Below are positions 1,965 through 27,825 of a DNA stretch of 40,716 nt, piece after piece. Positions within the stretch are counted from its first letter, which is position 1, and each line of letters begins with the position of its first letter. Origin of the DNA: a virus. The DNA is taken from UHGV virus genome UHGV-0322864. One strand, given 5' to 3'. The notes under the pieces were generated by a model. It did no database searches and was not told where the DNA came from. It was given only the letters and a program-made list of their open reading frames with translations. Made by a program: the position numbers and the translations under genes.

Positions 1965-1977
1965 ATTTGTCTCCTAA

Positions 1978-2946: not shown

Positions 2947-2958
2947 ATCAAATCTCCT

Positions 2959-4011: not shown

Positions 4012-4030
4012 AAGTCCTCCTTAAAGATTA

Positions 4031-4813
4031 TTACTTTACACCAATGCTAGCTAAACGTCTGAGCACTGCTTGTGTTTGTGGACTGTACTGAGAACCTGCT
4101 GCATGTGGTGCACTTGCCCTCTGAACTGTTTGAGAAGTAGGAGGTTTACCGGCAAGCATAGCAGCTACCCCTAATACTGCATTACCAAAGTTCTGTTGAG
4201 GCTTCTGGTTTTTACCTTCCTGCACTTCATCAGAGTAAAACTCTACTGGATTTCCGCCTAAAGCACCTGTCTTAGAAGCAGCAATCTCTGCCTGAGTTGG
4301 CGCTTGTGCGGCCTTCTCTCTATCTAACAAGTCAGGACTAAACTGATTGACTGGTTGAACAGCTTGCAAAGCTCCAACAGGGTTCGCAATCTGAGAAGCT
4401 GCATCACCATAGAAAGGAAGAAAGTGTTTATTGTTCATGGAGTCAAGAGCTTGTGGAGTAAACCCCTTTTTACCAGCGAACATTTGCTTAGCACCACCGA
4501 TACCCTCTGAGTAACCAACCATTGCTTTCTTGACATCACCATTAAAAGCCTTTAAGTTATCTCTAATATAACGAGCACCCATATCAATATTCTTTGCTGG
4601 GTCAAGTCTGTCTTCTAGTTTGTAACCGTAGTCTTTAGCCAATCCTTTACTGATCTGCATTAAACCTACAGGACCAGTTCCAGAAGCCGCTGTAGGACGA
4701 CCACTAGACTCTCTTTGGATTACAGCATGAATCAAAGCAGCAGGAATCCTATACTTCTTTGAAGCCTGTTGAACCATTGGGTCTAGTTCTTCAATACCCA
4801 TTTTAATTGCCAT
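4031..4813 (-). CDS. soluble lytic transglycosylase (SLT) domain protein, likely virion-associated
   Basis: N-terminal motif AALIHAVIQRESSGRPTAASGTGPVGLMQISKGLAKDYGY matches the SLT catalytic-Glu signature (ExxxQRESS...GLMQ); sits among structural genes. Confidence 0.8.
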   Translation of the reverse strand: MAIKMGIEELDPMVQQASKKYRIPAALIHAVIQRESSGRPTAASGTGPVGLMQISKGLAKDYGYKLEDRLDPAKNIDMGARYIRDNLKAFNGDVKKAMVGYSEGIGGAKQMFAGKKGFTPQALDSMNNKHFLPFYGDAASQIANPVGALQAVQPVNQFSPDLLDREKAAQAPTQAEIAASKTGALGGNPVEFYSDEVQEGKNQKPQQNFGNAVLGVAAMLAGKPPTSQTVQRASAPHAAGSQYSPQTQAVLRRLASIGVK

Positions 4814-4825
4814 AATATCTCCTTG

Positions 4826-5857
4826 TTATAGTCCAGCAAAAACTTTAGCTGCATTAATTACAGGCATAGATAAATTGACCACAGTATCAGATCCCAAGTC
4901 GTAATTCTGATCCCATTGGAAAAGATATCTCCCATAACCAGTCCCTACACTAGAACCAGCCATTGTGTGAGATCTCATCTGTTGATATCTCCAACCACTT
5001 CCTCGACCTTTTATAGCCCCTATACCAGAGGACAGAGGTATCATAGGGTAAGCCATTCCTGTGTTACCTCCACCCGAACCTATAAAGTTATCAATAGTAA
5101 AAGGTGTTCTATTTGTTGAGAATACACATTGTGTAGTTCCCGGTGAGTAGATATTCAAACCACCATTGTGCTCAGGAACTCCAGCACCATTGCAAAATAC
5201 TGCAACCCTAGCAAATACGGAACCACCTTCGTTGGTGTTTCCATTAACGTATGGACGGTTTTGATAAACCCGTATAACCCTGTCACCAGAAGTATAAGAT
5301 AACCCTAAACCTCCATCAGACCAGTTAGCAAAAACTACAGCATTGGGCATATAGAATCCACCTATATCTGGAATCTGTAGAGCATTATTTATTGTTCCTT
5401 GCCAAGCCCAAATACACTGACCAACAACCCCAGCATCTGATATAGAGAAATAATCAGCTGTATTAGAAAAAGTTATGCCGTAGTTCCTATCAGCTCTAGG
5501 CCAGATTTGATAAACATTAAAACCACAATCAAAAAGAGGATTACTTCCGGGGTTCTGATTTAGGTTGACACGGAAAGATGTGTTATTTTCTACATAAATA
5601 CTACTTACACAATAAACATCTGGAACGAGGTTTGGTGGAACCTCCCATTGCCAACAAAGAGATCCTGTTGGGACAATAACAATCTGACCAGAACCATCCC
5701 ACCCACTAATAGGGAAGGATCTTCCACCACCGTTGAAGTTGAAACTACCGCTTATGGTGTTCTTTATCTGAGGGAAGGTGCTCCCACTATCAATAAAAAG
5801 AGGAGCAGGGGAAGCTGGCCCCGGCCCTACTGGTTGTGCCCAAATTCCATATGCCAT
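4826..5857 (-). CDS. hypothetical structural protein (possible receptor-binding tip protein)
   Basis: 343-aa G/S/N-rich ORF, predicted beta-rich, translationally coupled to the upstream fibre-like gene. Confidence 0.5.
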   Translation of the reverse strand: MAYGIWAQPVGPGPASPAPLFIDSGSTFPQIKNTISGSFNFNGGGRSFPISGWDGSGQIVIVPTGSLCWQWEVPPNLVPDVYCVSSIYVENNTSFRVNLNQNPGSNPLFDCGFNVYQIWPRADRNYGITFSNTADYFSISDAGVVGQCIWAWQGTINNALQIPDIGGFYMPNAVVFANWSDGGLGLSYTSGDRVIRVYQNRPYVNGNTNEGGSVFARVAVFCNGAGVPEHNGGLNIYSPGTTQCVFSTNRTPFTIDNFIGSGGGNTGMAYPMIPLSSGIGAIKGRGSGWRYQQMRSHTMAGSSVGTGYGRYLFQWDQNYDLGSDTVVNLSMPVINAAKVFAGL

Positions 5858-5858
5858 A

Positions 5859-6830
5859 TTACCAACTCCCTATTCTGATTCTCAAAGCACCGCTTCCATC
5901 ATAGAAATCAATCCTGTTTCCATTCATCCAGAGTTGTGCCCCACCTGTACCGCCCATAACAAAGTCACCACCAACAGTGAGCCTCCAGTTAGAACCCCAC
6001 ATAGAACCAGCAGTGATTTTATCCGCTGACAAGTTCTGAATCTGGGCGTTGGAGATGGATACGTTATCAATCTGTGCCCATTGAATTCTAGCGTTAGCAA
6101 TCTGAGCTGTTGTGATATTGACGTTCTTTATATCAGCGAATTCCATCCTAGCTCGCCCACCTTCAAACACGAAGGGAGTGTTACCAGAGTTGCCATCACC
6201 AACAATAAATTTGTTAGCTGTTACTTGGAATTGACTGTTTGTTCCGTTGTTAGTTAATTTGACCCCAGCATATCTTCCGTTGACTGTTGAGTTGACTCCC
6301 CATGTAGCTTCATATTCAGAAAGCTTCATATACTGAGAGAGGCTTCCATTAATATTTTGAATCTCTGTCTGAACTAAAGCAATCTCTTGACCTTGGTCGT
6401 TAACAATCCCTTCTACCGTTTGAATCTTAGTTGTATTGCCTTCAATACTTGTTTTAAAGCCAGATACAGTACTTTCTAATTTTACAGGAGGTTGAACAGA
6501 ATTATCCCAAATATCTTCAGTGGAGAGATTCCCCATCTGTGTTTGGATATCGGCAATAGCTGTCTCTATCTCTGTAGTAATTCTATTCTCAAGCTCATCG
6601 AATTGTAAGTTCATCGCATGAAGAGCTTTGATACGAACATCAATCTCGTCGTGAATCTCGTCAATAGCTTGGAACATTTGGTTAGTAGCTGTACTGACTT
6701 TTTGTAATTCATCATACACGGCTACGTTATATGTTTCTGTGTCCTGTACATTATTGAGAAACCCAACGTTGTACGGGAGTGTGGTGTTGTTACGACCTGT
6801 ATTCTTTCTAAATCCTCCAGCACCCATTCC
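5859..6830 (-). CDS. tail fibre-like protein
   Basis: ORF track gives 5859..6875; the first Met preceded by an SD (AAGGAGG, 9 nt spacing) is MGAGGFRKNTGR near 6830; coiled-coil segment then repetitive NITTAQIANARIQWAQIDNVSISNAQIQNLSADKI typical of fibre shafts. Confidence 0.55.
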   Translation of the reverse strand, partial: GMGAGGFRKNTGRNNTTLPYNVGFLNNVQDTETYNVAVYDELQKVSTATNQMFQAIDEIHDEIDVRIKALHAMNLQFDELENRITTEIETAIADIQTQMGNLSTEDIWDNSVQPPVKLESTVSGFKTSIEGNTTKIQTVEGIVNDQGQEIALVQTEIQNINGSLSQYMKLSEYEATWGVNSTVNGRYAGVKLTNNGTNSQFQVTANKFIVGDGNSGNTPFVFEGGRARMEFADIKNVNITTAQIANARIQWAQIDNVSISNAQIQNLSADKITAGSMWGSNWRLTVGGDFVMGGTGGAQLWMNGNRIDFYDGSGALRIRIGSW

Positions 6831-6855
6831 ATAATCCCTCCTTGCTAGATAATCT

Positions 6856-6885
6856 AAAAACAATAAAAGGGGCACGAAGCCCCTT
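6856..6885 (-). terminator. intrinsic terminator after the 1005-aa gene
   Basis: Minus-strand GGGGC-UUCGU-GCCCC followed by UUUUAUUGUUUUU. Confidence 0.6.
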
Positions 6886-6889
6886 GTTA

Positions 6890-9800
6890 TTATCTTCGTC
6901 CGCCAACAGCAAACTCTATCGTTAACCCATTGATAGCAGCATTACTGTTAACATCATTATCTATAACATTATAGAAAAGGTATGGATGGTTCAGTCTCAC
7001 AGAGACATGCCTGTCAACACCGATCGTGTATGTCTTAGATGTGTGTGGGTGTCCATATTCATTTGAGAATTGACTACCACCAGCTTCAAATATGTAAGTA
7101 CCTGAACCAGTTGTCTGAGGTCTGAACCTGTTGATATGTTTCTGATTCCATTCGTTAGTGATGTTATCAAAATCCATACCAGTTCTTTCTAACCTCATCT
7201 CCAGTGGTTTTTCTATAACCTTATCATTAAGCCTATCATAGAAGTAATCCAAAGCACCAACATCCACTTGATAGAATCCCCTCAAGAATGAACCTACTAT
7301 CGTAACCCTCTGTCTAAAGTTTGTTGCATCCTTTCTCCAAACAAGTTCTTTGATAGATGGGTCATCCCAAGTGATCTCTTGGAAGTCAGACCAGATTGGA
7401 CCTCTCTCTAAAACAGGAGGGTCAACCAGACCGATACACTGAGCATAAGGGATAGTACGGAAAGACCAAGTATCAAACTCATAATTCCATACAGCAGCTT
7501 TAGTGCAAGCGAAGCTTTCTTTCGGCTCTCCCGGACCTACATAGAGAACCCAAACTTCTTTCTTATCCTGATGCAAGTGTACTCGAGTAGCTAGAGGGTT
7601 AACCAGACAAACCTCGTTAATCAGCATGTTCTTAACACGGTTAGATGCAATTGACTTCTTGGTTGCACCATTGTGTAAGATCACATCGTTCTGAGTAACT
7701 ACGAAATGACTACCTTCTACTTCAACCACACACTCAGGAGCAAGGATACCAGAGTCATTAAAGAGTTTCTTGAACATCAGAGGTTGGTATGTGTTATTAG
7801 TTGGAGAACCAATATACGTTTCAAACTCTGTATAAACGAACAAGTAGTCTTTAAGAGGCAGGATATCAATCAAGCTACCATTAGAATCGGCTAGGTCAAT
7901 GTAACCAGCATACCCATTCTCTAGAGCCTGAGTCTGCCCTACGATGTTAGAAGCTAAGTCCGAAGACACAACTCGATCATAGGCAAAGTCATCCCACAGT
8001 GTAGGAGCCTTGTTCTCATTGGCAAAGTTAGACCAACGAAGACGAAGCGGATAGTTAGTGGTAACACCAGAAGCATTAGCCTCTCTCATATTCAGAGCAA
8101 AAAGACGGTTGTTAAAAGATCTCACTCTCTCACATTTCCAGTTAAACTTCTTGACTGAAGGGTTTCCATCATTATCAACAACTGTTTGCTCACCCCACCC
8201 CGGGAGGTCTACAAAGTATTCTGATTCGAATTCTTTTACCTGAGGAGTTTCATAGTGAGTTGTAGCAACTGCACAGTTAGAGATAACAGCGTGATACCAA
8301 GGGTAGTCATCAAAAGCATCATAATCTTTCTGAGTCATCTGGCTGACAGTACATGTTACGTTAATCTCTCCTTTACGAAGAGCAACCAGTTTGATAGATT
8401 TACCAGTAACTGAAGTTGTAGAAACATAACCAGTTTTATCAACAGACCACTGATAAGAGTACTCACCTTCTGGAGAAGCTGTGGCTGTAATGACAATCTC
8501 TTCACCAACATCAAGGGAGGCGCTGACAATATCTAAGGTTACAGACGACAAAGGGGTTGCCAGTAAAGAAGCTCTTGCAAAACCTTCAATGTCATTCACG
8601 TTAGAGTAGTCGTAGAAGTTGTTACCTTCATACATCCCTGACGTATCAATACCGGATGTAGGCTCAGCAAAATAAACCGTCTCTTCACTTTCAGGAGGAG
8701 TTACTACTTCTTCCTCTTGAGTTTCTACTGACTCTGACACAGGAGCGGCAAATGCCATAGCACTTGTTCTCATTGTCCTTCCAGCTAAATCCACACGTAC
8801 AGTACAGACAGCAACTCTGTTACCTTCTTCAGTGGTAGCTGTAATCTCAGTAAAACCAGCAAGCAGAGCGTTGATCGTCCCTTGTGTGCTAGTCCCTGAT
8901 ACTGTTGCAATATTTGGGTTAGAAGAGGTCCAAGTAATATTTTGATTAGGGGCGTTAGCAGGAGAAAGGGTGGCAGTTAAAATATACTGAGAACCTCTAC
9001 TCACAGTAACATCTGACTGGCTTAAAGAGATACTATCAATCTGAGGGATAGAAACAATCTCACAAGAAGCAGTCTTAGTCCCGTTATCAGCAGTGATTGT
9101 TACATTACCTTCTCCATTCGCTGTAATGACAGCAGTTAAAGAGTTGGCGTTAGGGGTTACAGATACAATAGAAGCGTTATTGCTGGACCAAGTTACAGGG
9201 GTTTTGCCAGTAACAGCCGTGAGGGTAGTAGTCCCTCCTTTACGAATTGTAACAGTATCTTGACTCAAGAAGATGCCTGAATCACCATCGATGATATTAA
9301 CAGCAATCTGAGCCACTACGGATTCATTGGCAGTAGAGATAGTTACTACAAGATTACCCTCTTTCTCAAAAGATGTTAGAGTAGCAAGTTTAGAGTCACT
9401 AGGGTCTACCGTAATACTTCCATAGGATGAGTTACTAACCTCCCAAATAAGATCGGTATTGTTAGCATCAGCAGGGAGAAGAGAAACCTCTAGATTCTTG
9501 GTCTGATTGAAGTTCATTGAGATAGTTGATTCTTTAGGAACGATCTGAGAAACAACTGGATAAATCTTAATTGAGGCAGAAGCCTTCTTAGTGACTGTAG
9601 CAACCTTACGGCTAATATCAGTCAAGCTTTCATCTGTCAGTTTATATAACTTCTTATCAGTACCTACAACAAGAAAGCTATTACCTGCGCTATAATAATC
9701 GAAAGGCATAGAAACGAAAGACAGAGGGGTTAAATCCTTATCTTCATCTACATAAGAAAGAGGGGCATTGCCCCCCGTCTTAAATACTCTCTGCTCAACA

Positions 9801-9907
9801 AATCGAGCATTTATAGCATTAGTGAAAGCATTAGGAGCTAAGTCTGTCGGAGCCTGATCAGCGATAACGCCTACAGCACCTAGTGACTTTATTGGATACA
9901 GCGCCAT
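6890..9907 (-). CDS. large virion structural protein with tandem Ig-like (Big_2-type) domains
   Basis: 1005-aa ORF; three consecutive ~90-aa segments with Big_2-like pattern (e.g. VTVSRGSQYILTATLSPANAPNQNITWTSSNPNIATV...TATTEEGNRVAVCTVRV). Confidence 0.7.
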   Translation of the reverse strand: MALYPIKSLGAVGVIADQAPTDLAPNAFTNAINARFVEQRVFKTGGNAPLSYVDEDKDLTPLSFVSMPFDYYSAGNSFLVVGTDKKLYKLTDESLTDISRKVATVTKKASASIKIYPVVSQIVPKESTISMNFNQTKNLEVSLLPADANNTDLIWEVSNSSYGSITVDPSDSKLATLTSFEKEGNLVVTISTANESVVAQIAVNIIDGDSGIFLSQDTVTIRKGGTTTLTAVTGKTPVTWSSNNASIVSVTPNANSLTAVITANGEGNVTITADNGTKTASCEIVSIPQIDSISLSQSDVTVSRGSQYILTATLSPANAPNQNITWTSSNPNIATVSGTSTQGTINALLAGFTEITATTEEGNRVAVCTVRVDLAGRTMRTSAMAFAAPVSESVETQEEEVVTPPESEETVYFAEPTSGIDTSGMYEGNNFYDYSNVNDIEGFARASLLATPLSSVTLDIVSASLDVGEEIVITATASPEGEYSYQWSVDKTGYVSTTSVTGKSIKLVALRKGEINVTCTVSQMTQKDYDAFDDYPWYHAVISNCAVATTHYETPQVKEFESEYFVDLPGWGEQTVVDNDGNPSVKKFNWKCERVRSFNNRLFALNMREANASGVTTNYPLRLRWSNFANENKAPTLWDDFAYDRVVSSDLASNIVGQTQALENGYAGYIDLADSNGSLIDILPLKDYLFVYTEFETYIGSPTNNTYQPLMFKKLFNDSGILAPECVVEVEGSHFVVTQNDVILHNGATKKSIASNRVKNMLINEVCLVNPLATRVHLHQDKKEVWVLYVGPGEPKESFACTKAAVWNYEFDTWSFRTIPYAQCIGLVDPPVLERGPIWSDFQEITWDDPSIKELVWRKDATNFRQRVTIVGSFLRGFYQVDVGALDYFYDRLNDKVIEKPLEMRLERTGMDFDNITNEWNQKHINRFRPQTTGSGTYIFEAGGSQFSNEYGHPHTSKTYTIGVDRHVSVRLNHPYLFYNVIDNDVNSNAAINGLTIEFAVGGRR

Positions 9908-9916
9908 AATTCCTCC

Positions 9917-10720
9917 TTAGCTAATACGTCTCCAAATGTGAGCTGCTCTGAATGGTGGCAAAGTGTTAATAGGTTGACGAGAGATATCATCACGACCAAG
10001 ACTTACACTACCAGAGATTGTATGAGTATGTGTGTCATTATCAGTTCTCTGACTATAACCACCACCCGGACTATACCAGTTTGGCGAGCTGTTATGACCA
10101 CTAGCATCTCCACGACCAAATACCATATTGTGGCTGTGAGTATTACTGGATAGAGAGAAGCTGGAGCCATTAACTGTCATCAAAGGTACGTTCTCAGTTC
10201 GAATAGTATTGAAGACACGACCACCAGTACCACCTGCTTGGAACTCAACTCTCTGAGCATTAGGAACAGAGCCATCAGGGTTTACTACACCAGTACCCAT
10301 AATGACACCAGTCACTTTAGCCCAAGAACCAAACCCTAAGGAGATTGAATCACCGGGGTTAATGTCTTCTTCAGTGATGTAGTAAGAACCAATTCGATAG
10401 AGCTTATTCTCCATCCAGTTCTTCATGAACGCTTCCATCTGGCCTTTAGTAACAACATCCTTGTCACCAGTTCCCGGAGTAACGTTCTTAATCATTAGAC
10501 CGCCAACATCCATTGCATCACCAGTAAACTTAAGCTTCTCTGACATAATCTTAAAAGTGTCAGAATCAATATCAACTGGTTCTGTGACATTGGGGAATGT
10601 GTTCTGTAGTGTTTGTTTAATGAGGCGGATTTGAGCCGCCCCTTCGTAAATGTAATCCCTGTCTCTAGGATAGAGTGGGTTTAAGTCGGTAATAACTACC
10701 GCATTAGTTTCGATAGCCAA
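9917..10720 (-). CDS. tail fibre/receptor-binding-like protein
   Basis: 267-aa ORF; G/S/T/N-rich beta-type sequence; translationally coupled to the 1005-aa gene. Confidence 0.5.
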   Translation of the reverse strand: MAIETNAVVITDLNPLYPRDRDYIYEGAAQIRLIKQTLQNTFPNVTEPVDIDSDTFKIMSEKLKFTGDAMDVGGLMIKNVTPGTGDKDVVTKGQMEAFMKNWMENKLYRIGSYYITEEDINPGDSISLGFGSWAKVTGVIMGTGVVNPDGSVPNAQRVEFQAGGTGGRVFNTIRTENVPLMTVNGSSFSLSSNTHSHNMVFGRGDASGHNSSPNWYSPGGGYSQRTDNDTHTHTISGSVSLGRDDISRQPINTLPPFRAAHIWRRIS

Positions 10721-10732
10721 AAGGCACCTCCA

Positions 10733-11224
10733 TTAATATTTACCTTCGGTGTAAAGATTAGCTTCTGCAACTCTTCTATTATGAAGACCCTGACTTCTCT
10801 GCTTCTCTCCCTTGACCGTTATTTTATCCCAACGAAGAAATTCGGAATAAACATCCCCCTTAACATCTCCATTGATAACCTTCCTTAACTTAGATGTGCT
10901 CAAAGCACCACTGCCAACATTGAAGTTGAAAGAAGTGAGTGCATCAAACTCATGAACTAGTAAAGGAACCTTTATGTTCTTCTGAGTAGCACGAACAGAG
11001 TCTTGTGTGTCTCTATCTAGCAGAGCTAGACAATCCTCTATAGAATACGTTAATCCTTGTCTAACCGGATAACCATTCATATCGCGCGTAGCCCCTACAC
11101 ATATAGTCCATATACCTGCGGAATCTTTATAAGCCTTGGTTCTCATACCCTCATGCTTCATGATGAATTCCATTCCAGCTGGGCTTAAGTTTAATTGTAC
11201 AGGTGGCAATGCGACGTTATCCAT
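10733..11224 (-). CDS. GH24 (T4-type) lysozyme
   Basis: KHEGMRTKAYKDSAGIWTICVG carries the T4-lysozyme catalytic spacing E-(9)-D-(6)-T; 163 aa. Confidence 0.85.
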   Translation of the reverse strand: MDNVALPPVQLNLSPAGMEFIMKHEGMRTKAYKDSAGIWTICVGATRDMNGYPVRQGLTYSIEDCLALLDRDTQDSVRATQKNIKVPLLVHEFDALTSFNFNVGSGALSTSKLRKVINGDVKGDVYSEFLRWDKITVKGEKQRSQGLHNRRVAEANLYTEGKY

Positions 11225-11253
11225 TTCTAACCTCCTTTTGTAGTCCCTTTAAA

Positions 11254-11472
11254 TTAAGGTAGTATCTTTCTCAGAGCGTTAGATTCAGCATCAGGGCAAA
11301 TAACAACTAAGTTATTTTGAATTGTTCTCTGCTTACATTGAGAGCTGAGTTTCTCTACTGGAGCAGGATCAGTTACTAATGGATGAACTGCGCCTACAGG
11401 GACTGCGGTCGATACCACAACACCTGCACCTAAACAGATTAAACCATATGCAGCTTGTTTCATCATTTTCAT
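11254..11472 (-). CDS. small secreted/membrane protein next to the lysozyme (lysis-associated candidate)
   Basis: 72 aa; N-terminal hydrophobic segment MKMMKQAAYGLICLGAGVVVSTAVPVGA, two Cys in the remainder; SD AGGAGA before the ATG. Confidence 0.45.
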   Translation of the reverse strand: MKMMKQAAYGLICLGAGVVVSTAVPVGAVHPLVTDPAPVEKLSSQCKQRTIQNNLVVICPDAESNALRKILP

Positions 11473-11564
11473 TTGAGTGTCTCCTATATATTAACCTCTT
11501 GGGATATATTAGTTTCATTACTTACTAAGGGTACTTACTACTAAAGCCCCCGAAGGGGCTTATC

Positions 11565-13673
11565 TCACTTGTTAGATTTGAGTTCAGCAATCTCTGCTTT
11601 AAGGGTGTCGATTTGTTCCATCAAAGCCAGAATAGCTTCGTGGTGAAGACCAATCGCAATACCAGTAGAATCTGGAGATAGGACACCTTTGACAACTGTT
11701 CCATCAGGGAGGGTTCTGTCTGGGCCTGTATAGACCAACTCTGGATAGATATCCTGAACTTCTTGAGCAATGAACCCAATACCAAACTGGCCCCCGTCTA
11801 AGCGTCGCCAAGTGTACCCATGTAGTTTCTTCATCTTCTCAAGAGGTTCTTCTATCTTAGCAATATCCTTTTTAATTCGGATATCCGAATTACTCACCCA
11901 GTTAGCAGGAGCTATGGCACTACCAAACTGGTTAAACAGCCAGTCCACATTCACCCCTGCTCCTGAGAATCTAAGTATGCCAAAGCTATCAACACCCACG
12001 TTCTCCGCCATAGACATGGAGAAAACAGCACCCGGTGTTCCGGGATTACCCACTCTGCCTGTTAGCTCACAAATAAACGCCGGGGATGTTGTAGGCCACT
12101 GACCATCAGACCCTAACTTAGAAGCTGCAATGAAACCTGACCCCACACCTCTAGTGTATGTTGGGATTGTTAGCTCCCCACCAAGGTCGAATCGAATCTC
12201 GGAACTTTTACCTTGATAGTCTTCAATTCTCCATACACCACCTCCACGTTGACCATAATTACCATCAGCACGCATAGAAGATCTTATGTGCATAGAGTCT
12301 CCAATATTATAGTCAGAGCGAACCTCACCACCCTTTATAGCCGTCCCTGTTCCAGGAGCAGCGGAATCTCCATTAATAACAGACCAAGAAGTATTAGCTG
12401 CAATAAATGCTCCGTTGGCACGAACTACCCATACGCCAGATACTTTGTTTGGAACGATCTCTGCTGAGTTGTTGCGTCCGTAGACGGCGCTGGAACGGGA
12501 GGCATCGAAGGTGATTCGCCCGTATGCGTCCCCAGAAGCTGCCAACGCGGTGAGGTTCGTGGCTGGCGTAACAGTTCCCCCAGCAAACGCCCCGCTGGGA
12601 CTGAAGTATATCCCACGTGTTCCGGCGTATGTGTTGTCTAAAGAGGCTGTGATATTAGGAGCGCTATTCAACGCGACAGTCATATCAGAAGCAGAAGTTT
12701 TTCCACCTCGGAAAAACAAACCTTCTATAGAGCCATCCTGAACACCGTTCCAATCTGGTACACGGAAAGTAGTTGTACCATTACCTAAAGAATATTTGCC
12801 ACGCTGAGATGGGTCTGCTAACCAATCAGAATCGTCAATAGGGGTTAGCATTTGAGCAAACACCCATAGTTCTGGATATTTAGCTCGTTCTAATAGCTGC
12901 CCATCTAAAGTCACGTCATATGGGTGTATAAGTGCTCGGCTTGCAGCCATATGAGGAGTACCAATTCCGTAGTTCATAATACCGTTCATTGTGGCTCCAC
13001 CTGAACCGCCACTATTTCGGAGCTGTCTCAAAGTAACCGCATCATAATCACCTACAGCATCAGGTACAGTTACCGGTTGAGTAAAAGTAACTTTCTGTGT
13101 GAGCTGTTTGATATCAGAGTTAATCCCTGTACGAGTAACACCAATAGTCCGACCTTTGGAATCTTTAACATAAGAACCAATCGCAGCGAAAGGTAAATCC
13201 TCGATCTCAGGGCGGTATCGTTTAGAATAAACAGGGTACTTAGTTTCTACCCCAGAGTCATTCTGGTCAACAACCTGAAGACGACCAGCAGAGTGAATTT
13301 CTACACCTTGAACTGAGGAAGCATAACTACCAATCTTAATTGAGTTATCAGTGGTGACTTTCATCATATCCACAGACTCTACACCATTAGCCCCAGCAGA
13401 ACGGAAAGGGATGTTATTATCTACAAAAGGGTCTGCTTTGAACAAAGCACCTTCCATGATAGGTTGAATTGAATCTAATACATAATCTTTAGATGCACCT
13501 TCTGTTTTAGTTTGATAAATATCAGCTGCATCTGTTTTCTGTAGATATTTACCTGTTAAATCTACTGCACCAGCTACTCCGTCTACAGTAGAAACCCCAA
13601 CAACTGCTGCATCTCTATTGATTACAACATGTGGCATCATTATCCCAGATTTGGGCATTAATTCTCTAGCCAT
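11565..13673 (-). CDS. tail fibre with phage tail-collar-like module and C-terminal intramolecular chaperone (peptidase S74-like) domain
   Basis: Collar-like DGQLLERAKYPELW...GKYSLGNGTTTFRVPDWNGVQ; C-terminal SDIRIKKDIAKIEEPLEKMKKLHGYTWRRL...GLHHEAILALMEQIDTLKAEIAELK matches the auto-cleaving chaperone pattern. Confidence 0.8.
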   Translation of the reverse strand: MARELMPKSGIMMPHVVINRDAAVVGVSTVDGVAGAVDLTGKYLQKTDAADIYQTKTEGASKDYVLDSIQPIMEGALFKADPFVDNNIPFRSAGANGVESVDMMKVTTDNSIKIGSYASSVQGVEIHSAGRLQVVDQNDSGVETKYPVYSKRYRPEIEDLPFAAIGSYVKDSKGRTIGVTRTGINSDIKQLTQKVTFTQPVTVPDAVGDYDAVTLRQLRNSGGSGGATMNGIMNYGIGTPHMAASRALIHPYDVTLDGQLLERAKYPELWVFAQMLTPIDDSDWLADPSQRGKYSLGNGTTTFRVPDWNGVQDGSIEGLFFRGGKTSASDMTVALNSAPNITASLDNTYAGTRGIYFSPSGAFAGGTVTPATNLTALAASGDAYGRITFDASRSSAVYGRNNSAEIVPNKVSGVWVVRANGAFIAANTSWSVINGDSAAPGTGTAIKGGEVRSDYNIGDSMHIRSSMRADGNYGQRGGGVWRIEDYQGKSSEIRFDLGGELTIPTYTRGVGSGFIAASKLGSDGQWPTTSPAFICELTGRVGNPGTPGAVFSMSMAENVGVDSFGILRFSGAGVNVDWLFNQFGSAIAPANWVSNSDIRIKKDIAKIEEPLEKMKKLHGYTWRRLDGGQFGIGFIAQEVQDIYPELVYTGPDRTLPDGTVVKGVLSPDSTGIAIGLHHEAILALMEQIDTLKAEIAELKSNK

Positions 13674-13685
13674 TAAATCCTCCTA

Positions 13686-13708
13686 AAAAGCTCCCCGAAG
13701 GGAGCTGT
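13686..13708 (-). terminator. intrinsic terminator between the two tail-fibre genes
   Basis: Minus-strand AGCUCCC-UUCG-GGGAGCU followed by UUUUU, then the SD of the next gene. Confidence 0.6.
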
Positions 13709-13713
13709 GTTAA

Positions 13714-16700
13714 TTAACGAGCTTTCAGTACAGCTACTTCATTCTCCAGAGCTTCAATCTTGTCCAAGAGAACAAGAAGGGCTTCATGATGAAGAGCGGC
13801 TGCTACACCATAGGTGTCAACAGATTTAACATCCTTCACAATTGTTCCATCTTTCAACTCCGTGTCAGAGAATTTAGTAACTTTGACGGCATCCGGAAAA
13901 ACCTTCTCAACATCTTGAGCTAAGAAACCAATACCATTAGGTTTAGAGAGTTTATCCAACCGCTCCCATGTTACACCCTTAATAGCTTTAAGTTTCTCTA
14001 TAGGGTTTTCAATCCGTTTGATATTTGTCTTAAGTCTCTCATCGGAAGTGCTTGCCCAATTCCCTGCTTGTGCCGTTCCATCAGGAAAGAACTTGAAGTC
14101 AGCAGCTGTTCCAGTACCACCATTCACAGAAATCTGAGCGTGCATCAACTCTGTTCCACCACCACGAACACCACCAAAAGTGTAACTGCCATCATACCAG
14201 TCACCAGAGAAATAGGAAACATACCCCGGAGTACTTTGGTTGAAATTGATCATCCTGATAGCGTTCTTCTCACTTGGTGCTACACCAACAGAATTGTTAG
14301 CCCTGACCAGCACGTCAGTAGGTCTTAAGTATGCATCAATTGTTAGTGCCCCGTCAGCCCTCTCTGTTCCAATCTGGGTGATAGCATTGGGAAATACCAG
14401 AGTACCAGCATTATTGAATTTCCATTCCTGGTTTCCATTAAGAATCTTAGCACCAGACTTATTAGAAGCCCCATCTATCTCTCCATAAGCAGACATAGTT
14501 GCTGAGTAGGTTAAATCTGTTCCTATCTTATATTCTGAACGAACCAGACCACCAGATACAGTAAACCCAGCCGATGGTTTAACATCATCGCTATTAATAA
14601 CACTCCAAGAAGTATTAGCAGCAGTAAAGCCACCATTAGCACGAATCACCCAGACACCTATGAAGCTGTTGGTGCGGACTTCGGTCGTGTTGTCGCGACC
14701 ATAAGAGGCGTTTGATAGGCCCGCTCGAAAGCCGACGGAAAGCGCTGGTGTGGTTCCTGCGCCTAACGGAATATTAAGTGCTGGATCAGCCGCAAACATC
14801 GCCCCCGTAGGATCTCCATATACGCTCCATATGTTCGCACCAACGGAGCCTGTAATATCAGGCGCGGCGTTCTGCTGAACAGTACCGTCGTTGGCGCTGT
14901 TACCACCGTCACCGCGAGCATACAGACCAGAGATAGAACCGGTTTGAACGCCATTTCTATCAGGAACGCGGAAAGTAGTAGAACCATCACCTAAAGAGTA
15001 TTTACCTCTTTTCTGAGGATCAGCCAGCCAGTCAGCATCTGTGATAGGGCTTAAGGCTTGAGCATAAGCCCATAAATCTGGATATGAAGTACGAGACAAA
15101 AGTTGTCCATCAGAAGGTACATCATTAGAGTGAATTAAAGCACGACTATCAATTAAACGGAAATCACCTATGTTGAAGTTGGACACTCCGTTTAAGCTTG
15201 CACCACTTCCACCACCTCCTTGGTTGCGTAATTGACGAAGGGTAACTGCATCTGAATCACTAACCGCATCACCACCTAAACGAGTGGGACCAATCAATCC
15301 TTCCAGTTTCGTAATATCTGAGTTAACCCCAGAAGAGTTGATAGCAGCAGCACCAATAGCAGCAGGAGTAGGTTTGTTACCTTCAGTGTAAAACTTATTC
15401 TCACCGCTAGGACCAACATGCACAGGAACCGAAGCAGACAGCACTTTTGTGTTACTTGTATCGTTGCCAACCAAGACAGTACCGTCAGAACCAGAGGTGA
15501 TCAAATTAACAGCAACACCATTACTAGAAGTGCCTGTTAATACAATACCTGTTCCTAGATTTAAGTGTCCTGTCATTTTACCACCAGAAGTAGGAAGAGC
15601 ACCTAAATCAGAAGAGGTCAAAGCAACATTACCTGTTACCTCGTCAGGAACTTTTCCATTAACTGCAACAACATATGGAACTTGAGCAAGAGGCTTACCA
15701 TCATACTGAGCATCACTGGTAAGATTTGGAGATCGAATTGCTTCCCCTCCTGTCCAATCAGGCAGACGGATGTTGATGTAGTTTGTAGAATCCGCATCAG
15801 TGATACCGTCAGCAAGTTTACCCCAAGAATAGTATTGCTTTGAACCAGCCTGCCACTCTGTCTCAGAAACTACCGGAAGCTGACCGTTGACCAAAGAAGC
15901 TCCTAAATCTGATGCAGTGTCTTTGGAAACCAAACGACCATCAGCAGGCAAAATACCCGGGTAAGAAACAGGACGAGATGGGTCATATGGAAACATCAAC
16001 AATTCACCAAGATACAGAGATGGGTTCCCTGTCGGGATGGTGATATCAATATTACCAGTTGAGTCAGGAATACGAGAGTTTACTGTTATTACCCTATTCT
16101 CTGTCTTAACTGGGGTTAATGTTTTGTTCGAAGCTACAGTATAAAATTCATATTTGTAATCTTCCCAAACCAGAACGTTCTCACCAGTTTTTCTGTTAAC
16201 AGCATCGGCATCAGCCGCAGCTTTTGTTCTGTATGTTTTAACATAACCATCCACTTTCCCATCAACCTGAGATGTACTGTAAGATGCAACGTTTACGACA
16301 TTATTTAAACCAACTGAAGTTTTATCTAAGACTAGATTAACATCACCGGTAGCTGGAGATCCTCCGTTCACTGCAACTGAACGAACAGATGGGATTAAGT
16401 TAGCGATATCCTCTAAGGTTGTTTTATGTACGGTATTATCGTCCTTATCAACATAGAATCCTAAATCACCAAGCTCAGGAATACCTGTAGGTGCTGTATC
16501 CAAGTCTTTAACAGAACCATCTTTTCCGGGTTCGCCTTCTGGGATACCTAAAGAGATTACACCAGTGTTAGGGTTAAAAGAACCAGTAGCTTGACTCCCC
16601 GGAGGAAGGGTAGTTACATCAACAGACATTCCCAACAGGATATCAAGCTGTCTCTGAACTTCGATTAGTTTCTGGTTAATGAGAGCAACGGCATTATTAG

Positions 16701-17001
16701 CATCCGACACTGCTGCGTTAGTCTGAGCAATAAGTGTCATCAAACGAGCATCTTGATCTTTAAAGTCCTGTTTAAGATCTTCGATATCTTGCTTCATTAA
16801 AACACCTTGTTGATACAGACGTTCTACTTCAGTGATCAAGTCATCAATTGTACCAAACTTAGACTCCGCTAGCAGTGCCCAATATTTGGAGTCAGCTGCA
16901 TATTCTGCTGCTTGCTTGTAAGCTCCGATAGAGCCTTCCTTAGCACCAAACTGCCCAACATCATTCACTGCATCAGGTGCTTGGCTATTATAAACGATCA
17001 T
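13714..17001 (-). CDS. long tail fibre with collar-like module and C-terminal intramolecular chaperone domain
   Basis: 1095 aa; N-terminal coiled coil; shares a ~200-aa module with the 702-aa fibre (DAVTLRQLRN...GKYSLGDGSTTFRVPDRNGVQ...TSWSVIN); C-terminal SDERLKTNIKRIENPIEKLK...ALHHEALLVLLDKIEALENEVAVLK. Confidence 0.8.
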   Translation of the reverse strand: MIVYNSQAPDAVNDVGQFGAKEGSIGAYKQAAEYAADSKYWALLAESKFGTIDDLITEVERLYQQGVLMKQDIEDLKQDFKDQDARLMTLIAQTNAAVSDANNAVALINQKLIEVQRQLDILLGMSVDVTTLPPGSQATGSFNPNTGVISLGIPEGEPGKDGSVKDLDTAPTGIPELGDLGFYVDKDDNTVHKTTLEDIANLIPSVRSVAVNGGSPATGDVNLVLDKTSVGLNNVVNVASYSTSQVDGKVDGYVKTYRTKAAADADAVNRKTGENVLVWEDYKYEFYTVASNKTLTPVKTENRVITVNSRIPDSTGNIDITIPTGNPSLYLGELLMFPYDPSRPVSYPGILPADGRLVSKDTASDLGASLVNGQLPVVSETEWQAGSKQYYSWGKLADGITDADSTNYINIRLPDWTGGEAIRSPNLTSDAQYDGKPLAQVPYVVAVNGKVPDEVTGNVALTSSDLGALPTSGGKMTGHLNLGTGIVLTGTSSNGVAVNLITSGSDGTVLVGNDTSNTKVLSASVPVHVGPSGENKFYTEGNKPTPAAIGAAAINSSGVNSDITKLEGLIGPTRLGGDAVSDSDAVTLRQLRNQGGGGSGASLNGVSNFNIGDFRLIDSRALIHSNDVPSDGQLLSRTSYPDLWAYAQALSPITDADWLADPQKRGKYSLGDGSTTFRVPDRNGVQTGSISGLYARGDGGNSANDGTVQQNAAPDITGSVGANIWSVYGDPTGAMFAADPALNIPLGAGTTPALSVGFRAGLSNASYGRDNTTEVRTNSFIGVWVIRANGGFTAANTSWSVINSDDVKPSAGFTVSGGLVRSEYKIGTDLTYSATMSAYGEIDGASNKSGAKILNGNQEWKFNNAGTLVFPNAITQIGTERADGALTIDAYLRPTDVLVRANNSVGVAPSEKNAIRMINFNQSTPGYVSYFSGDWYDGSYTFGGVRGGGTELMHAQISVNGGTGTAADFKFFPDGTAQAGNWASTSDERLKTNIKRIENPIEKLKAIKGVTWERLDKLSKPNGIGFLAQDVEKVFPDAVKVTKFSDTELKDGTIVKDVKSVDTYGVAAALHHEALLVLLDKIEALENEVAVLKAR

Positions 17002-17010
17002 ATTATCTCC

Positions 17011-17763
17011 TTATACACGAGAAGTACGAATACCATAAATATCAGGCAAGCTGCTCTGAAGTCGAGTCATGTTATTCGGAATTGCGATAGGTGAACCTGA
17101 GTACTCTTGTTTCTTATGCTGCTCTACTATTTCATCAAGGATAGCTTTTCCTAATGCAGACCATTTCTGAACTCCATTATCATCTTGAACAAATAAGCAA
17201 GCGTGACGTAGAGTGAAATACAGAAGAAGCTCTGGTGCAATAGTGAGGATAGCACTGGTATCTGTATCTTCATGGAATTCCGGTGGGTCCGCATAATAGC
17301 TAAGAATCACTGAGTTTTCTGCTGGAATCAAAGGGCTTCCATCATCAGGATAAACAGGAGTATCTGCTTCAATACTAGGATAGAAAATGAAACGACTCCC
17401 GAAACGAGCAAAGTTAACAGGCTGGTTGTTCCAGTGGGATGGGTTAATTGTTCCATGCTGTCTACGATAGCTAATCTCTTCCGGAGATGTTACTTGGAAG
17501 ATTGTACCATCTTTGGCTCTCATCATCCATTGAGCTTCTAAGTAATCAGGAGGAATATAAGCTACTCCATCTTTAATATCTAAATAGACTTCTTTTTCCA
17601 GAGGAGGAATACGTAAGTTACGATAGATCTCTTTCTCTGCAAAGTTAATAAAGTTTGGAATTTGATTAACAAATTCATCATCGTCTCGATCGGCCCACAA
17701 GGCAACAGCTTTCTTAAGCCAGCCATACGTGTTAATCGGGTTTTGCACTTCAGGCATCGCCAT
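17011..17763 (-). CDS. virion structural protein (head-tail adaptor/connector candidate)
   Basis: 250-aa ORF between the capsid and tail-fibre genes; SD AAGGAGG; coupled to the downstream fibre gene. Confidence 0.5.
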   Translation of the reverse strand: MAMPEVQNPINTYGWLKKAVALWADRDDDEFVNQIPNFINFAEKEIYRNLRIPPLEKEVYLDIKDGVAYIPPDYLEAQWMMRAKDGTIFQVTSPEEISYRRQHGTINPSHWNNQPVNFARFGSRFIFYPSIEADTPVYPDDGSPLIPAENSVILSYYADPPEFHEDTDTSAILTIAPELLLYFTLRHACLFVQDDNGVQKWSALGKAILDEIVEQHKKQEYSGSPIAIPNNMTRLQSSLPDIYGIRTSRV

Positions 17764-17796: not shown

Positions 17797-17805
17797 TATA
17801 CATTA
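17797..17805 (-). promoter_or_regulatory. TAATGTATA motif (candidate phage middle/late promoter element)
   Basis: Exact 9-mer on the minus strand ~33 nt upstream of the ATG at 17763, just downstream of a terminator. Confidence 0.4.
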
Positions 17806-17826
17806 CACACTAGCTTGTATAGGTCT

Positions 17827-27149: not shown

Positions 27150-27650
27150 CCTTCCCCGTGCCTACTCCCCGTTATTCTTTCCCCGTGTATACTACCCAAT
27201 ACATTACCTACCCGTTTATTTAGTTCCCCTTTAAAGAGTGAGAGAAAGGCTAGACTCTGATAAGGCGTAGTCATAGTGACAATAAGAGAGCTAATAATAC
27301 CCATAAGTAATAGCCCACATCCCCCATAGTTTGATTGTAAATAGTTTCAATAGTAATGATTATGAGTGCAATAATGATGTATGTATTAATTAAGTGGAAA
27401 GATTATGTTTGATGTTTATTATTCTTTTAAGAATGATTGTTTTTATTTCTTTTAATACTTTCTTTTTCAGCGTACATGAGCGTAGCGAATGGTCTTTGAT
27501 GTTTGAGTTATACAATTATTTAAGTGGTATATTACTACCGCACTATCTGGCAGTGTTTCCCCGTGGTCTGTCCTGCGGTTGTGTGTTCCCCGTTTGTCCT
27601 GGTCTGTTGGTCTGCTACCCGTAGCGCCAGCGTAACACCCGTAGCGATAG
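27150..27650. repeat. clusters of short direct repeats in the divergent intergenic region
   Basis: Three TCCCCGT copies at 27152-27186; TTCCCCGT(G/T)...GTCCTG twice at 27557-27606; ACCCGTAGCG twice at 27617-27647. Confidence 0.5.
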
Positions 27651-27700
27651 TGTTATAAAGTAACAATAGCTAGTAAGCTGATTCTCTGAGTATGGAAAGT

Positions 27701-27722
27701 TTAACAAATTAAATTCCTTTAG
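27701..27722 (+). repeat. copy 1 of 22-nt motif TTAACAAATTAAATTCCTTTAG
   Basis: About 40 nt upstream of the early promoter at 27760. Confidence 0.5.
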
Positions 27723-27759
27723 TTTTCAGTGAGTTATAGGAAAGTTAGAAAATAAATGT

Positions 27760-27788: not shown

Positions 27789-27825
27789 GTTGACAGTTAA
27801 TTGAATCTATCTAAGGAATAACGAA

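What the first reader, a model, noticed from the sequence alone, without database searches (positions are those of the whole stretch)
10733..11472. Lysozyme and small membrane protein embedded between tail-fibre genes
Seen in sequence: a GH24 lysozyme with the E-9-D-6-T catalytic spacing and an upstream 72-aa protein with an N-terminal hydrophobic segment sit inside the tail-fibre cluster rather than in a terminal lysis cassette. The region is bracketed by a UUCG hairpin upstream and translational coupling downstream. Inference: either a lysis cassette co-transcribed with tail genes, or a virion-associated lysozyme used during entry.
Basis: partly seen in the sequence, partly recalled or inferred. 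Interest (0 to 1): 0.45.

Follow-up and report, generated by a model that had tools for sequence, protein, structure and literature searches.

The report
Known Kuravirus lysis cassette among tail genes
The two genes are the already-annotated "holin" and endolysin of a phiEco32/SU10-type E. coli phage, which sit between the long and short tail-fibre genes in every relative; this is an ordinary cell-bursting cassette, not a lysozyme carried in the virus particle.

Summary
On the - strand, 11254-11472 encodes a 72-aa protein with one N-terminal hydrophobic segment. 10733-11224 encodes a 163-aa GH24 lysozyme (Pfam E 3.7e-32; E25-x8-D34-x5-T40). They lie between the distal long-tail-fibre gene and the short-tail-fibre gene, after a UUCG hairpin.

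It is not new. The window is a Kuravirus, and the two proteins are 98-99% identical to phiEco32 gp16/gp17 and SU10 gp14/gp15. Those are annotated "putative holin / lysis protein", and three papers note their position among the morphogenesis genes.

The virion-lysozyme reading is disfavoured:
- SU10 proteomics detected 17 late-gene products but not gp14 or gp15.
- The SU10 papers read here assign neither to the tail.
- A separate SLT ejection protein (window 4031-4813) is credited with cell-wall digestion at entry.

The lysozyme has no SAR or signal segment, so it needs a holin. The spanins lie about 20 kb away, outside the window.

Two points remain open. The 72-aa "holin" is labelled by position only: its tail (CKQRTIQNNLVVICPD, two invariant Cys), predicted periplasmic, is far more conserved than its membrane segment, and it carries a signal-peptidase-like P-V-x-A motif. 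An invariant GTAATGAA element after the hairpin looks like an unreported gp36-type promoter.

The parts
11544..11561 (-). UUCG-tetraloop hairpin (AAGCCCC UUCG GGGGCUU) 3 nt after the stop of the distal long-tail-fibre gene, followed by only UUU. Probably a leaky terminator or RNA-stability hairpin.
   Evidence: Hairpins with different stem sequences occupy the same place in L005, L010 and L014. The default terminator scan did not flag it because the U-run is short.
11512..11521 (-). GTAATGAAAC, an island of invariant sequence (GTAATGAA). Candidate variant of the gp36 sigma-factor promoter element tAATGTAtA. The predicted transcription start is about 11504-11506.
   Evidence: Invariant in 9 of 9 diverse loci while the flanks drift (A2). 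In L014/L015 it reads GTAATGAATGTACAT, which contains an exact AATGTA core. The layout matches validated P13: hairpin, spacer, element, 34-40 nt, ATG. No conserved RNA structure is present. It is not among the published promoters.
11254..11472 (-). 72-aa protein, orthologue of phiEco32 gp16 / SU10 gp14 'putative holin'. One N-terminal hydrophobic segment (about 7-29) and a conserved hydrophilic C-terminal part with invariant C46 and C59.
   Evidence: phrog_11161 'holin' E 4.5e-50. No Pfam or NCBIfam family. Topology. Family alignment A1. 98.6% identical to SU10 gp14.
10733..11224 (-). 163-aa soluble GH24 (T4/P22-type) lysozyme, the endolysin. Orthologue of phiEco32 gp17 / SU10 gp15.
   Evidence: PF00959 E 3.7e-32. 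E25/D34/T40 present. Best solved relatives are chains named Endolysin or Lysozyme, E 1e-27 to 4e-12. No hydrophobic N-terminus: best 19-residue window 0.95.
10718..10735 (-). Junction: lysozyme stop TAA, then GGAGG, then the TTG start of the short-tail-fibre gene (12-nt gap). Close-coupled translation.
9917..10720 (-). Short tail fibre (Gp10_C domain), 100% identical to SU10 gp16. Downstream neighbour in the same transcription unit.
11565..13673 (-). Distal long-tail-fibre protein with a Peptidase_S74 chaperone end. Upstream neighbour, hypervariable (52.6% identical to SU10 gp13).
17797..17808 (-). GTGTAATGTATA, counterpart of the experimentally mapped phiEco32 late promoter P13. Nearest established promoter upstream of the cassette.
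4031..4813 (-). SLT-domain ejection protein, orthologue of SU10 gp20 / phiEco32 gp22. This is the virion-borne peptidoglycan hydrolase that already fills the 'entry enzyme' role.
   Evidence: PF01464 E 4.2e-24. phrog_12507 transglycosylase. 98.1% identical to SU10 gp20. Detected in SU10 virion preparations. Role stated in PMC9509320.

Best explanation
This is the holin-endolysin part of the lysis system of a Kuravirus (phiEco32/SU10-like podophage). It sits at a fixed, family-wide position in the late operon, between the variable long-tail-fibre genes and the conserved short-tail-fibre and nozzle genes.

Proposed mechanism. Late in infection the phage sigma factor gp36 drives transcription from the promoter in front of the adaptor gene (window 17797-17808). 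RNA polymerase reads through the leaky UUCG hairpins after each fibre gene. A second, weaker gp36-type promoter (GTAATGAA, 11521-11514) may add transcripts just upstream of the cassette. The 72-aa protein inserts in the inner membrane N-in/C-out. The 163-aa lysozyme has no export signal, so it accumulates folded and active in the cytoplasm. When the membrane protein triggers, the lysozyme reaches the wall and cuts the glycan strands through its Glu25/Asp34/Thr40 centre. The separately encoded i- and o-spanin pair, in the middle-gene cluster outside the window, then disrupts the outer membrane. Cell-wall digestion at entry is done by a different protein, the SLT ejection protein.

What is shown: gene identities, synteny, catalytic motif, absence of a signal or SAR segment, hairpins and motif conservation. 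What comes from the literature: SU10 gp14/gp15 were not detected in the proteomics; the SU10 structural paper never mentions them; the gp36 promoter set. What is inferred: that the 72-aa protein is the hole-former (I rate this about 0.55-0.6), its topology, read-through of the hairpins, and the extra promoter (about 0.4).
For: Identity with the family:
- Megablast finds 101 E. coli, Shigella and Salmonella phage records with the same region, annotated tail fiber / holin / endolysin / tail protein.
- Gene order and lengths (72 aa, 163 aa) are identical in Bas90, SU10 and phiEco32.
- Identities to SU10 are 98.6% (72-aa protein), 98.2% (lysozyme) and 100% (short tail fibre).

Synteny:
- Fibre or tailspike, then small protein, then PF00959 lysozyme, then Gp10_C. 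This order holds in every relative found, down to the most distant profile hits. It holds even where the upstream receptor-binding genes are replaced by different ones.

Lysozyme:
- Pfam and PHROG hits, solved endolysin relatives, and the catalytic triad conserved in 9 of 9.
- No hydrophobic N-terminus.

Literature:
[quoted passage not shown] - SU10 genome paper (PMC4281155).

Not virion-borne:
- SU10 proteomics table, the cryo-EM paper's description of the tail, and the SLT ejection protein in the window.

The 72-aa ORF is the only membrane-protein gene among the late genes in the window. The spanin pair is found elsewhere in the genome.
Against: No experiment on holin function of this family turned up in the papers searched. 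The 'holin' label rests on position plus one hydrophobic segment. There is no Pfam or NCBIfam holin family hit.

The conservation pattern is unlike what I recall of typical holins. The membrane segment drifts, while the hydrophilic C-terminal CKQRTIQNNLVVICPD is invariant under synonymous change. Invariant P25-V26-x-A28 resembles a signal-peptidase I site. If it is cleaved, the protein could not form membrane holes.

A 59-aa protein with two transmembrane segments exists in the middle genes of the related phage Bas90 and could be the real holin.

Absence from proteomics is negative evidence, from one relative, on an unpurified preparation passed over a 10-kDa filter.
Confidence: 0.85

Rival explanations
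1. The lysozyme is a virion-associated enzyme, carried on the tail or inside the head, that digests peptidoglycan during genome delivery.
For: It lies between tail-fibre genes and is close-coupled to the short-tail-fibre gene. I recall that some phages carry lysozyme-type domains on the virion, such as T4 gp5; this was not checked here.
Against: The SU10 orthologue (98.2% identical) was not detected in a preparation where 17 late products were found, and even terminase and DNA polymerase were seen. The SU10 cryo-EM paper describes the tail without gp14 or gp15 and never mentions a lysozyme. The entry enzyme is already assigned to the SLT ejection protein gp20, which is present in the window. 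The protein is a bare 163-aa catalytic domain with no attachment domain. It is paired with a small membrane protein, as lysis cassettes are.
Confidence: 0.04
2. The 72-aa protein is not the holin. It is exported through Sec and either cleaved after A28 or released like a SAR domain. This yields a periplasmic mini-protein of about 44 aa with a C46-C59 disulfide-stapled beta-hairpin that binds a specific partner. It could be a lysis-timing regulator or antiholin of the T4 RI type, a spanin or endolysin partner, or an exclusion factor. The true holin would be encoded elsewhere.
For: The invariant positions fit a signal-peptidase site: P25 (-4), V26 (-3), A28 (-1), with a variable -2. A small residue at -1 and V or T at -3 is kept in the distant homologues P0024 and P0025. 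The segment is 48% Gly/Ala/Ser/Thr by my count, as I recall is typical of SAR domains. The hydrophilic part is the most conserved region, with two invariant Cys and plentiful synonymous change: 24 of 35 columns are invariant, at 2.4 codons per invariant column. AF2 places C46 and C59 at the base of a beta-hairpin, but confidence is low (pLDDT 53). Bas90 has an alternative candidate with two transmembrane segments.
Against: The hydrophobic stretch is 23 residues, long enough for a stable anchor and long for a Sec signal peptide. P0025 has no basic n-region. The endolysin has no export signal, so a holin is required, and this is the only membrane-protein gene next to it in every relative. As I recall, the T4 holin T also has one TMD and a disulfide-containing periplasmic domain, so these features are compatible with a holin. 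No signal-peptide predictor or experiment was available.
Confidence: 0.25
3. The cassette and the downstream short-fibre and nozzle genes form their own transcription unit. The hairpin at 11561-11544 terminates fibre-gene transcription and the GTAATGAA element is a gp36-dependent promoter. Lysis-gene dosage would then be set independently of fibre-gene dosage.
For: The 8-mer is invariant in 9 of 9 loci amid drifting flanks. An exact AATGTA core overlaps it in L014/L015. The hairpin-element-ATG geometry matches validated P13. No conserved RNA fold explains the conservation. Phage 7-11 has a validated late promoter (P16) at the analogous place, ahead of its short-fibre homologue.
Against: The element matches only 6 of 9 consensus positions and mismatches the highly conserved core (AATGaA). 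Published work lists six experimentally identified gp36 promoters in phiEco32, before genes 6, 13, 26, 40, 58 and 68. It reports consensus-like sequences only at 'expected locations' in relatives. The SU10 paper lists three late promoters and none here. L013 has no intergenic space or motif at all. The hairpin has only a 3-U tail.
Confidence: 0.4

Closest known systems
phiEco32 gp16/gp17 and SU10 gp14/gp15 ('putative holin' / 'lysis protein'), genus Kuravirus, Gordonclarkvirinae
   Same: Same genes. Identities are 98.6% and 98.2-98.8%. Lengths are the same (72 and 163 aa). Neighbours are the same, as are the hairpin and intergenic sequence.
   Different: One substitution in the 72-aa protein (D35 in place of V35) and 2-3 in the lysozyme. 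The upstream long-fibre genes are only 43-53% identical to those of SU10.
Soluble GH24 phage endolysins (T4 E / P22 gp19 type; PDB 8app, 7m5i, 2anv)
   Same: PF00959 domain, the Glu-x8-Asp-x5-Thr triad, a single-domain protein of about 160 aa, and no export signal.
   Different: It has a conserved leader of about 17 residues (MDNVALPPVQLNLSPAG) before the catalytic domain. 8app aligns across part of this leader (query residues 6-17) with little identity.
SAR endolysins (P21 R, PDB 3hde), the label one GenBank record (MN03) gives this protein
   Same: Homologous catalytic domain (E 3.5e-15 to 3hde).
   Different: No N-terminal signal-anchor-release segment. The best 19-residue hydropathy window is 0.95 and the alignment to 3hde starts at chain residue 35. 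It is not a SAR endolysin.
T4 holin T (class III) and T4 antiholin RI (from my own knowledge, not retrieved)
   Same: One N-terminal TMD, N-in/C-out, with a sequence-specific periplasmic domain that contains cysteines.
   Different: No detectable homology. The protein is 72 aa against 218 (T) or 97 (RI). No Pfam hit to any holin family.
Lysis genes embedded in late morphogenesis operons: T7 gene 17.5 holin directly after tail-fibre gene 17, and the P2 Y-K-lysABC genes between head and tail genes (from my own knowledge)
   Same: Holin and/or endolysin genes sit inside structural-gene operons and are co-transcribed late, with other lysis genes elsewhere in the genome.
   Different: No sequence relationship. 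In Kuravirus the spanins are in the middle-gene cluster on the opposite strand.
Virion-borne peptidoglycan hydrolases of podophages: SU10 gp20 SLT ejection protein, and the T7 gp16 type
   Same: Both attack the cell wall.
   Different: Those are SLT lytic transglycosylase domains within ejection proteins found in virions. The window has its own copy at 4031-4813. The GH24 protein was not detected in the SU10 virion preparation.

Membership tests
GH24 phage lysozyme (Pfam PF00959) | Profile match above the curated threshold over the whole domain | tested here: met
   111.7 bits against a cut-off of 22.3, E 3.7e-32, profile positions 2-125 of 125.
GH24 phage lysozyme (Pfam PF00959) | Catalytic Glu-x8-Asp/Cys-x5-Thr triad | tested here: met
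   E25, D34 and T40 are present and conserved in 9 of 9 relatives. They align to EG...D...T in PDB 8app and 7m5i.
GH24 phage lysozyme (Pfam PF00959) | Muramidase activity on peptidoglycan | not testable with these tools
   Needs an enzyme assay.
SAR endolysin | N-terminal weakly hydrophobic signal-anchor-release transmembrane segment | tested here: not met
   Best 19-residue Kyte-Doolittle window is 0.95, below the 1.6 threshold I set. The N-terminus is MDNVALPPVQLNLSPAG.
Holin-endolysin lysis cassette | Small membrane-protein gene immediately adjacent to and co-oriented with the endolysin gene, conserved as a pair | tested here: met
   The 29-nt gap has its own SD. The pair is kept in all relatives examined.
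Holin-endolysin lysis cassette | The small protein forms lethal inner-membrane lesions that release the endolysin | not testable with these tools
   No experimental report was found in the papers searched. Needs genetics or physiology.
Curated holin families (Pfam / NCBIfam) | Significant profile match to a described holin family | tested here: not met
   No Pfam hit at E up to 10 other than a chance kinase fragment. No NCBIfam hit at E up to 1. The only match is PHROG 11161, which is this family itself, labelled 'holin'.
Class III (T4 T-like) holin topology | Single TMD, N-in/C-out, functional periplasmic domain | tested here: inconclusive
   One hydrophobic segment at 7-29. K2 and K5 favour N-in. 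The C-terminal domain is conserved with two invariant Cys. Cleavage or release cannot be excluded, and there is no homology to T.
Virion-associated lysin | Presence of the protein in purified virions | not testable with these tools
   Published data for the 98%-identical SU10 orthologue: it was not among the 34 proteins detected, and the cryo-EM paper never mentions it.
Virion-associated lysin | Lytic domain fused to, or accompanied by, a structural or attachment domain | tested here: not met
   The 163 aa are covered almost end to end by the lysozyme domain (residues 23-154), and no other domain is found.
Spanin (o-spanin or u-spanin) as the identity of the 72-aa protein | Lipoprotein signal with a lipobox Cys | tested here: not met
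   Read by eye: the residues before C13 are G-L-I, not a lipobox. The genuine overlapped i- and o-spanin pair, with lipobox MSAC, is in the middle genes of Bas90 and its counterparts.
gp36-dependent (phiEco32 sigma) promoter | Single element tAATGTAtA, with the transcription start 6-8 bp downstream | tested here: inconclusive
   TAATGAAAC matches 6 of 9 positions, with a mismatch in the AATGTA core. However, it is invariant across relatives and positioned like P13. No start-site data exist.
Intrinsic terminator | GC-rich stem-loop followed by a U-tract | tested here: inconclusive
   Stem of 7 bp with 5 GC pairs at -12.6 kcal/mol is met. The U-tract is only UUU (UUUU in some relatives), so the scan did not flag it.

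The most novel reading that the evidence does not exclude
The protein annotated as 'holin' across this family may not be a conventional hole-former. It may be a Sec-exported mini-protein, either signal-peptidase-cleaved or SAR-released, whose invariant disulfide-stapled periplasmic hairpin (CKQRTIQNNLVVICPD) binds a specific partner to time or license lysis. The cassette may be driven by a previously unlisted variant gp36 promoter (GTAATGAA). If so, the true holin of Kuraviruses is still unidentified.
Probability: 0.2. Interest if true: 0.4.

Novelty: already known. Interest (0 to 1): 0.12.

Why it matters
It matters little as a discovery. The gene pair and its placement have been annotated in the phiEco32 and SU10 GenBank records and are noted in several later genome papers.

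The practical value is in correct annotation. The lysozyme is a soluble endolysin, not a SAR endolysin as one GenBank record states, and not a virion enzyme. The entry enzyme is the SLT ejection protein.

Two small leads could interest lysis and transcription specialists who work on this therapeutic phage group:
- The 'holin' has never been tested and has an atypical conservation pattern.
- A strictly conserved promoter-like element sits just upstream. It also marks the boundary where receptor-binding genes are swapped.

Tried and rejected
- SAR-endolysin reading (the GenBank label for MN03): rejected, because there is no hydrophobic N-terminus.
- Virion lysozyme: rejected on SU10 proteomics, the cryo-EM paper's account of the tail, and the presence of an SLT ejection protein.
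- The 72-aa protein as a spanin or lipoprotein: no lipobox, and the real spanin pair is elsewhere.
- An embedded or overlapping gene explaining the conserved C-terminus: rejected, because invariant residues carry abundant synonymous variation.
- A conserved RNA structure in the 5' leader explaining the GTAATGAA island: RNAalifold finds only the terminator stem.
- Sigma-70 promoters: 15 found against 23 expected by chance, so there is no signal.
- Structure of the 72-aa protein: the AF2 model has pLDDT 53, too poor for fold search, and is used only as a weak hint.
- Remote homology: a word-index search and a full profile search of 1.84 billion representatives found only family members in the same synteny, plus low-complexity or chance hits. 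No characterised relative was found.
- The primary papers Savalia 2008 and Pavlova 2012 were not held. Their content is cited only through later open papers.
Full report
**What is there**

All genes from 315 to 27304 are on the - strand. In the direction of transcription the order is:
- terminase, portal, scaffold, major capsid protein and an Ig-domain protein
- SU10-type adaptor (17011-17763)
- a 1095-aa fibre (13714-17001) and a 702-aa fibre (11565-13673), both with Peptidase_S74 chaperone ends
- the 72-aa ORF (11254-11472)
- the 163-aa lysozyme (10733-11224)
- a 267-aa Gp10_C protein (9917-10720)
- a 1005-aa Big_2 protein (6890-9907)
- needle and ejection proteins, including an SLT transglycosylase (4031-4813)

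The lysozyme hits PF00959 at E 3.7e-32 and carries E25-x8-D34-x5-T40. Its closest solved relatives are chains named Endolysin or Lysozyme: 8app at 1.2e-27, 7m5i at 4.3e-25, P21 R 3hde at 3.5e-15 and P22 2anv at 5.2e-15. It has no hydrophobic N-terminus.

The 72-aa protein has one hydrophobic segment at about residues 7-29, preceded by K2 and K5 and followed by 43 hydrophilic residues.

The UUCG hairpin, all three Shine-Dalgarno sites and the stop-GGAGG-TTG junction were checked base by base. The one correction is that the downstream 'coupling' is a 12-nt gap with an SD that begins one base after the stop codon, not an overlap.

**What it belongs to**

Megablast of 9900-13700 finds 101 phage records, almost all from E. 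coli phages. They are annotated tail fiber / holin / endolysin / tail protein over the match.

The annotated records of Bas90, SU10 and phiEco32 show the identical order and identical ORF lengths. In phiEco32 the genes are phi32_16 'putative holin' and phi32_17 'lysis protein'. In SU10 they are SU10_014 and SU10_015.

Protein identities to SU10:

| Protein | Identity to SU10 |
|---|---|
| 72-aa protein | 98.6% |
| Lysozyme | 98.2% |
| Short tail fibre | 100% |
| Nozzle | 99.4% |
| SLT protein | 98.1% |
| Proximal long fibre | 42.9% |
| Distal long fibre | 52.6% |

The window is thus a Kuravirus. The cassette sits exactly at the boundary between the hypervariable receptor-binding genes and the conserved tail core.

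**The arrangement is already described**

[quoted passage not shown] **Lysis cassette or virion enzyme?**

The SU10 cryo-EM study assigns gp11 as adaptor, gp12 and gp13 as the long fibre, gp16 as the short fibre, gp17 as the nozzle and gp18 as the needle. It never mentions gp14, gp15 or a lysozyme. [quoted passage not shown]

The SU10 proteomics was run on a crude PEG preparation. It was sensitive enough to pick up terminase and DNA polymerase from 1-2 peptides. It lists late CDS 3, 5, 6, 8, 9, 9+10, 11, 12, 13, 16, 17, 18, 20, 21, 22, 23 and 24, but not 14 or 15.

The lysozyme is a bare catalytic domain. The entry enzyme exists separately in the window. I therefore rate the virion-enzyme reading at about 0.04. 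The caveat is that this is negative evidence from a relative.

**Rest of the lysis system**

Kongari et al. list phiEco32 among phages with two-component spanins (PMC6139136). In Bas90 an 'Rz-like spanin' lies about 20 kb away, in the middle-gene cluster next to the sigma-factor gene.

Translating that region shows an i-spanin with an N-terminal TMD. It also shows an overlapping o-spanin whose true start, with lipobox M-S-A-C, lies upstream of the annotated one. This region is outside the window. The lysis genes of this family are therefore split between two clusters. As I recall, T7 likewise splits its lysis genes between separate sites.

**Transcription context**

The phiEco32 sigma factor gp36 recognises a single element, tAATGTAtA, with the start site 6-8 bp downstream. 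Six promoters were mapped, before genes 6, 13, 26, 40, 58 and 68 (PMC8948821 and PMC12276001).

Exact TAATGTAT occurs four times on the - strand. Three sites lie where late promoters were predicted in SU10: 287-294, 17798-17805 and 27199-27206. The 17798-17805 site is the counterpart of mapped P13. The fourth, 3267-3274, lies inside a gene. The nearest established promoter for the cassette is therefore P13, in front of the adaptor gene.

Transcripts from P13 must cross two UUCG hairpins, at 13706-13689 and 11561-11544. Together with the one at 17858-17837, these are the only three such hairpins in the 40.7-kb window, and all are intergenic. Their U-tails are short, which fits leaky termination or RNA stabilisation.

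**A conserved element not in the published promoter lists**

The 8-mer GTAATGAA (11521-11514) lies 22 nt after the hairpin and 39 nt before the ATG. It is invariant in 9 of 9 loci whose flanks have diverged strongly (A2). In the more distant loci L014 and L015 the element reads GTAATGAATGTACAT, with an exact AATGTA core.

The hairpin-spacer-element-leader geometry copies that of P13. RNAalifold finds no structure that would explain the conservation. Phage 7-11 has a validated late promoter, P16, at the corresponding place.

Against a promoter, the window's element mismatches the conserved core. One relative (L013) has no intergenic space at all. I rate an additional gp36-type promoter at about 0.4.

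**The '72-aa holin'**

It has no Pfam or NCBIfam family. PHROG 11161 is the family itself.

A word-index search found 23 clusters, all from Kuravirus-like contigs. A full profile search of 1.84 billion representatives added only two more distant members. Both lie in the same fibre / small protein / lysozyme / Gp10_C synteny.

In the alignment the membrane segment drifts while remaining hydrophobic. C46-K-Q-R-T-I-Q-N-N-L-V-V-I-C59-P-D is invariant. In the two most distant homologues, C, R-T-I, N-L, V-I-C-P are kept. Invariant columns carry on average 2.4 different codons, so the constraint acts on the protein.

P25-V26-x-A28 is invariant with a variable -2 position. A small -1 residue and V or T at -3 persist in the distant homologues. 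This is the pattern of a signal-peptidase I site. The segment is also 48% Gly/Ala/Ser/Thr, as I recall is typical of SAR domains.

AF2 gives only pLDDT 53. It places C46 and C59 at the base of a beta-hairpin.

These features fit a T4-T-like single-TMD holin with a functional periplasmic domain. They equally fit an exported regulator. Three facts make me keep 'holin' as the most likely role, at about 0.55-0.6, though it is untested:
- The endolysin has no export signal.
- This is the only membrane-protein gene among the late genes in the window.
- The pair is never separated.

A 59-aa protein with two transmembrane segments in the middle genes of Bas90 is a possible alternative holin.

**Verdict**

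The feature is already known and annotated. Interest is low, at 0.12. The residual leads are the atypical, untested 'holin' and the conserved promoter-like element.

Noticed in passing
window 11512-11521 (- strand): GTAATGAA is invariant in 9 of 9 diverse Kuravirus-like loci, 22 nt after the hairpin and 39 nt before the 72-aa ORF. It has the same geometry as the mapped gp36 promoter P13 but is absent from the published promoter lists. In L014/L015 it overlaps an exact AATGTA core.
   Followed up: partly
window 11254-11472 (- strand), residues 25-28 and 46-61: The 72-aa protein has an invariant P-V-x-A motif that resembles a signal-peptidase site. Its C-terminal CKQRTIQNNLVVICPD is invariant under synonymous change, while the membrane segment drifts. 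This is unusual for a holin.
   Followed up: partly
window 17858-17837, 13706-13689 and 11561-11544 (- strand): These are the only three UUCG-tetraloop hairpins (stem at least 5 bp) in the 40.7-kb window. All are intergenic in the late operon, one after the Ig-domain gene and one after each long-fibre gene. A fourth hairpin with a 5-nt loop follows the nozzle gene at 6885-6867.
   Followed up: partly
window 11565-17001 compared with 315-11472: The two long-tail-fibre proteins are only 43% and 53% identical to those of SU10, while neighbouring proteins on both sides are mostly 98-100% identical. In other relatives the same slot holds one fibre, a pectate-lyase tailspike or Gp53-like proteins. 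The hairpin and cassette mark the 3' boundary of a swappable receptor-binding module.
   Followed up: partly
window about 27304-27826: The window appears to span the junction of the genome ends. Late genes run on the - strand up to 27304 and early-type genes start on the + strand at 27826. The sequence would then be a permuted or concatemeric assembly, and the roughly 190-bp terminal repeat reported for the group may lie here.
   Followed up: no
window 37490-37816, 37801-38109 and 39058-39315 (+ strand): The early region encodes a 108-aa protein with three hydrophobic segments. It overlaps by 16 nt a 102-aa predicted lipoprotein (lipobox L-T-G-C, phrog_4281, unknown function). An 85-aa protein with two TMDs lies nearby. 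I speculate these could be exclusion or takeover factors.
   Followed up: no
L004 (Bas90) 4527-5022 and 15945-16124: The o-spanin of Bas90 seems to start upstream of its annotated start (MRKLNQFFIMSALVMSMSAC..., lipobox MSAC) and overlaps the i-spanin. A 59-aa protein with two TMDs (Bas90_0063) in the middle genes is an unannotated holin-like candidate.
   Followed up: partly
window 17893-18849 (- strand): The ORF after the major capsid gene is listed at 318 aa, against 170 aa in phiEco32 and 132 aa in SU10. This suggests extra Ig repeats in the frameshift-extended capsid decoration.
   Followed up: no
window 10718-10720 (- strand): The short-tail-fibre gene starts with TTG, 6 nt after a GGAGG that begins one base after the lysozyme stop codon. 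The divergent relative L005 has ATG at the same position, which confirms the start site.
   Followed up: yes
GenBank MT129653 (phage MN03), hit H21: That record labels the orthologous lysozyme 'SAR-endolysin'. The sequence has no SAR segment, so the label appears wrong.
   Followed up: yes
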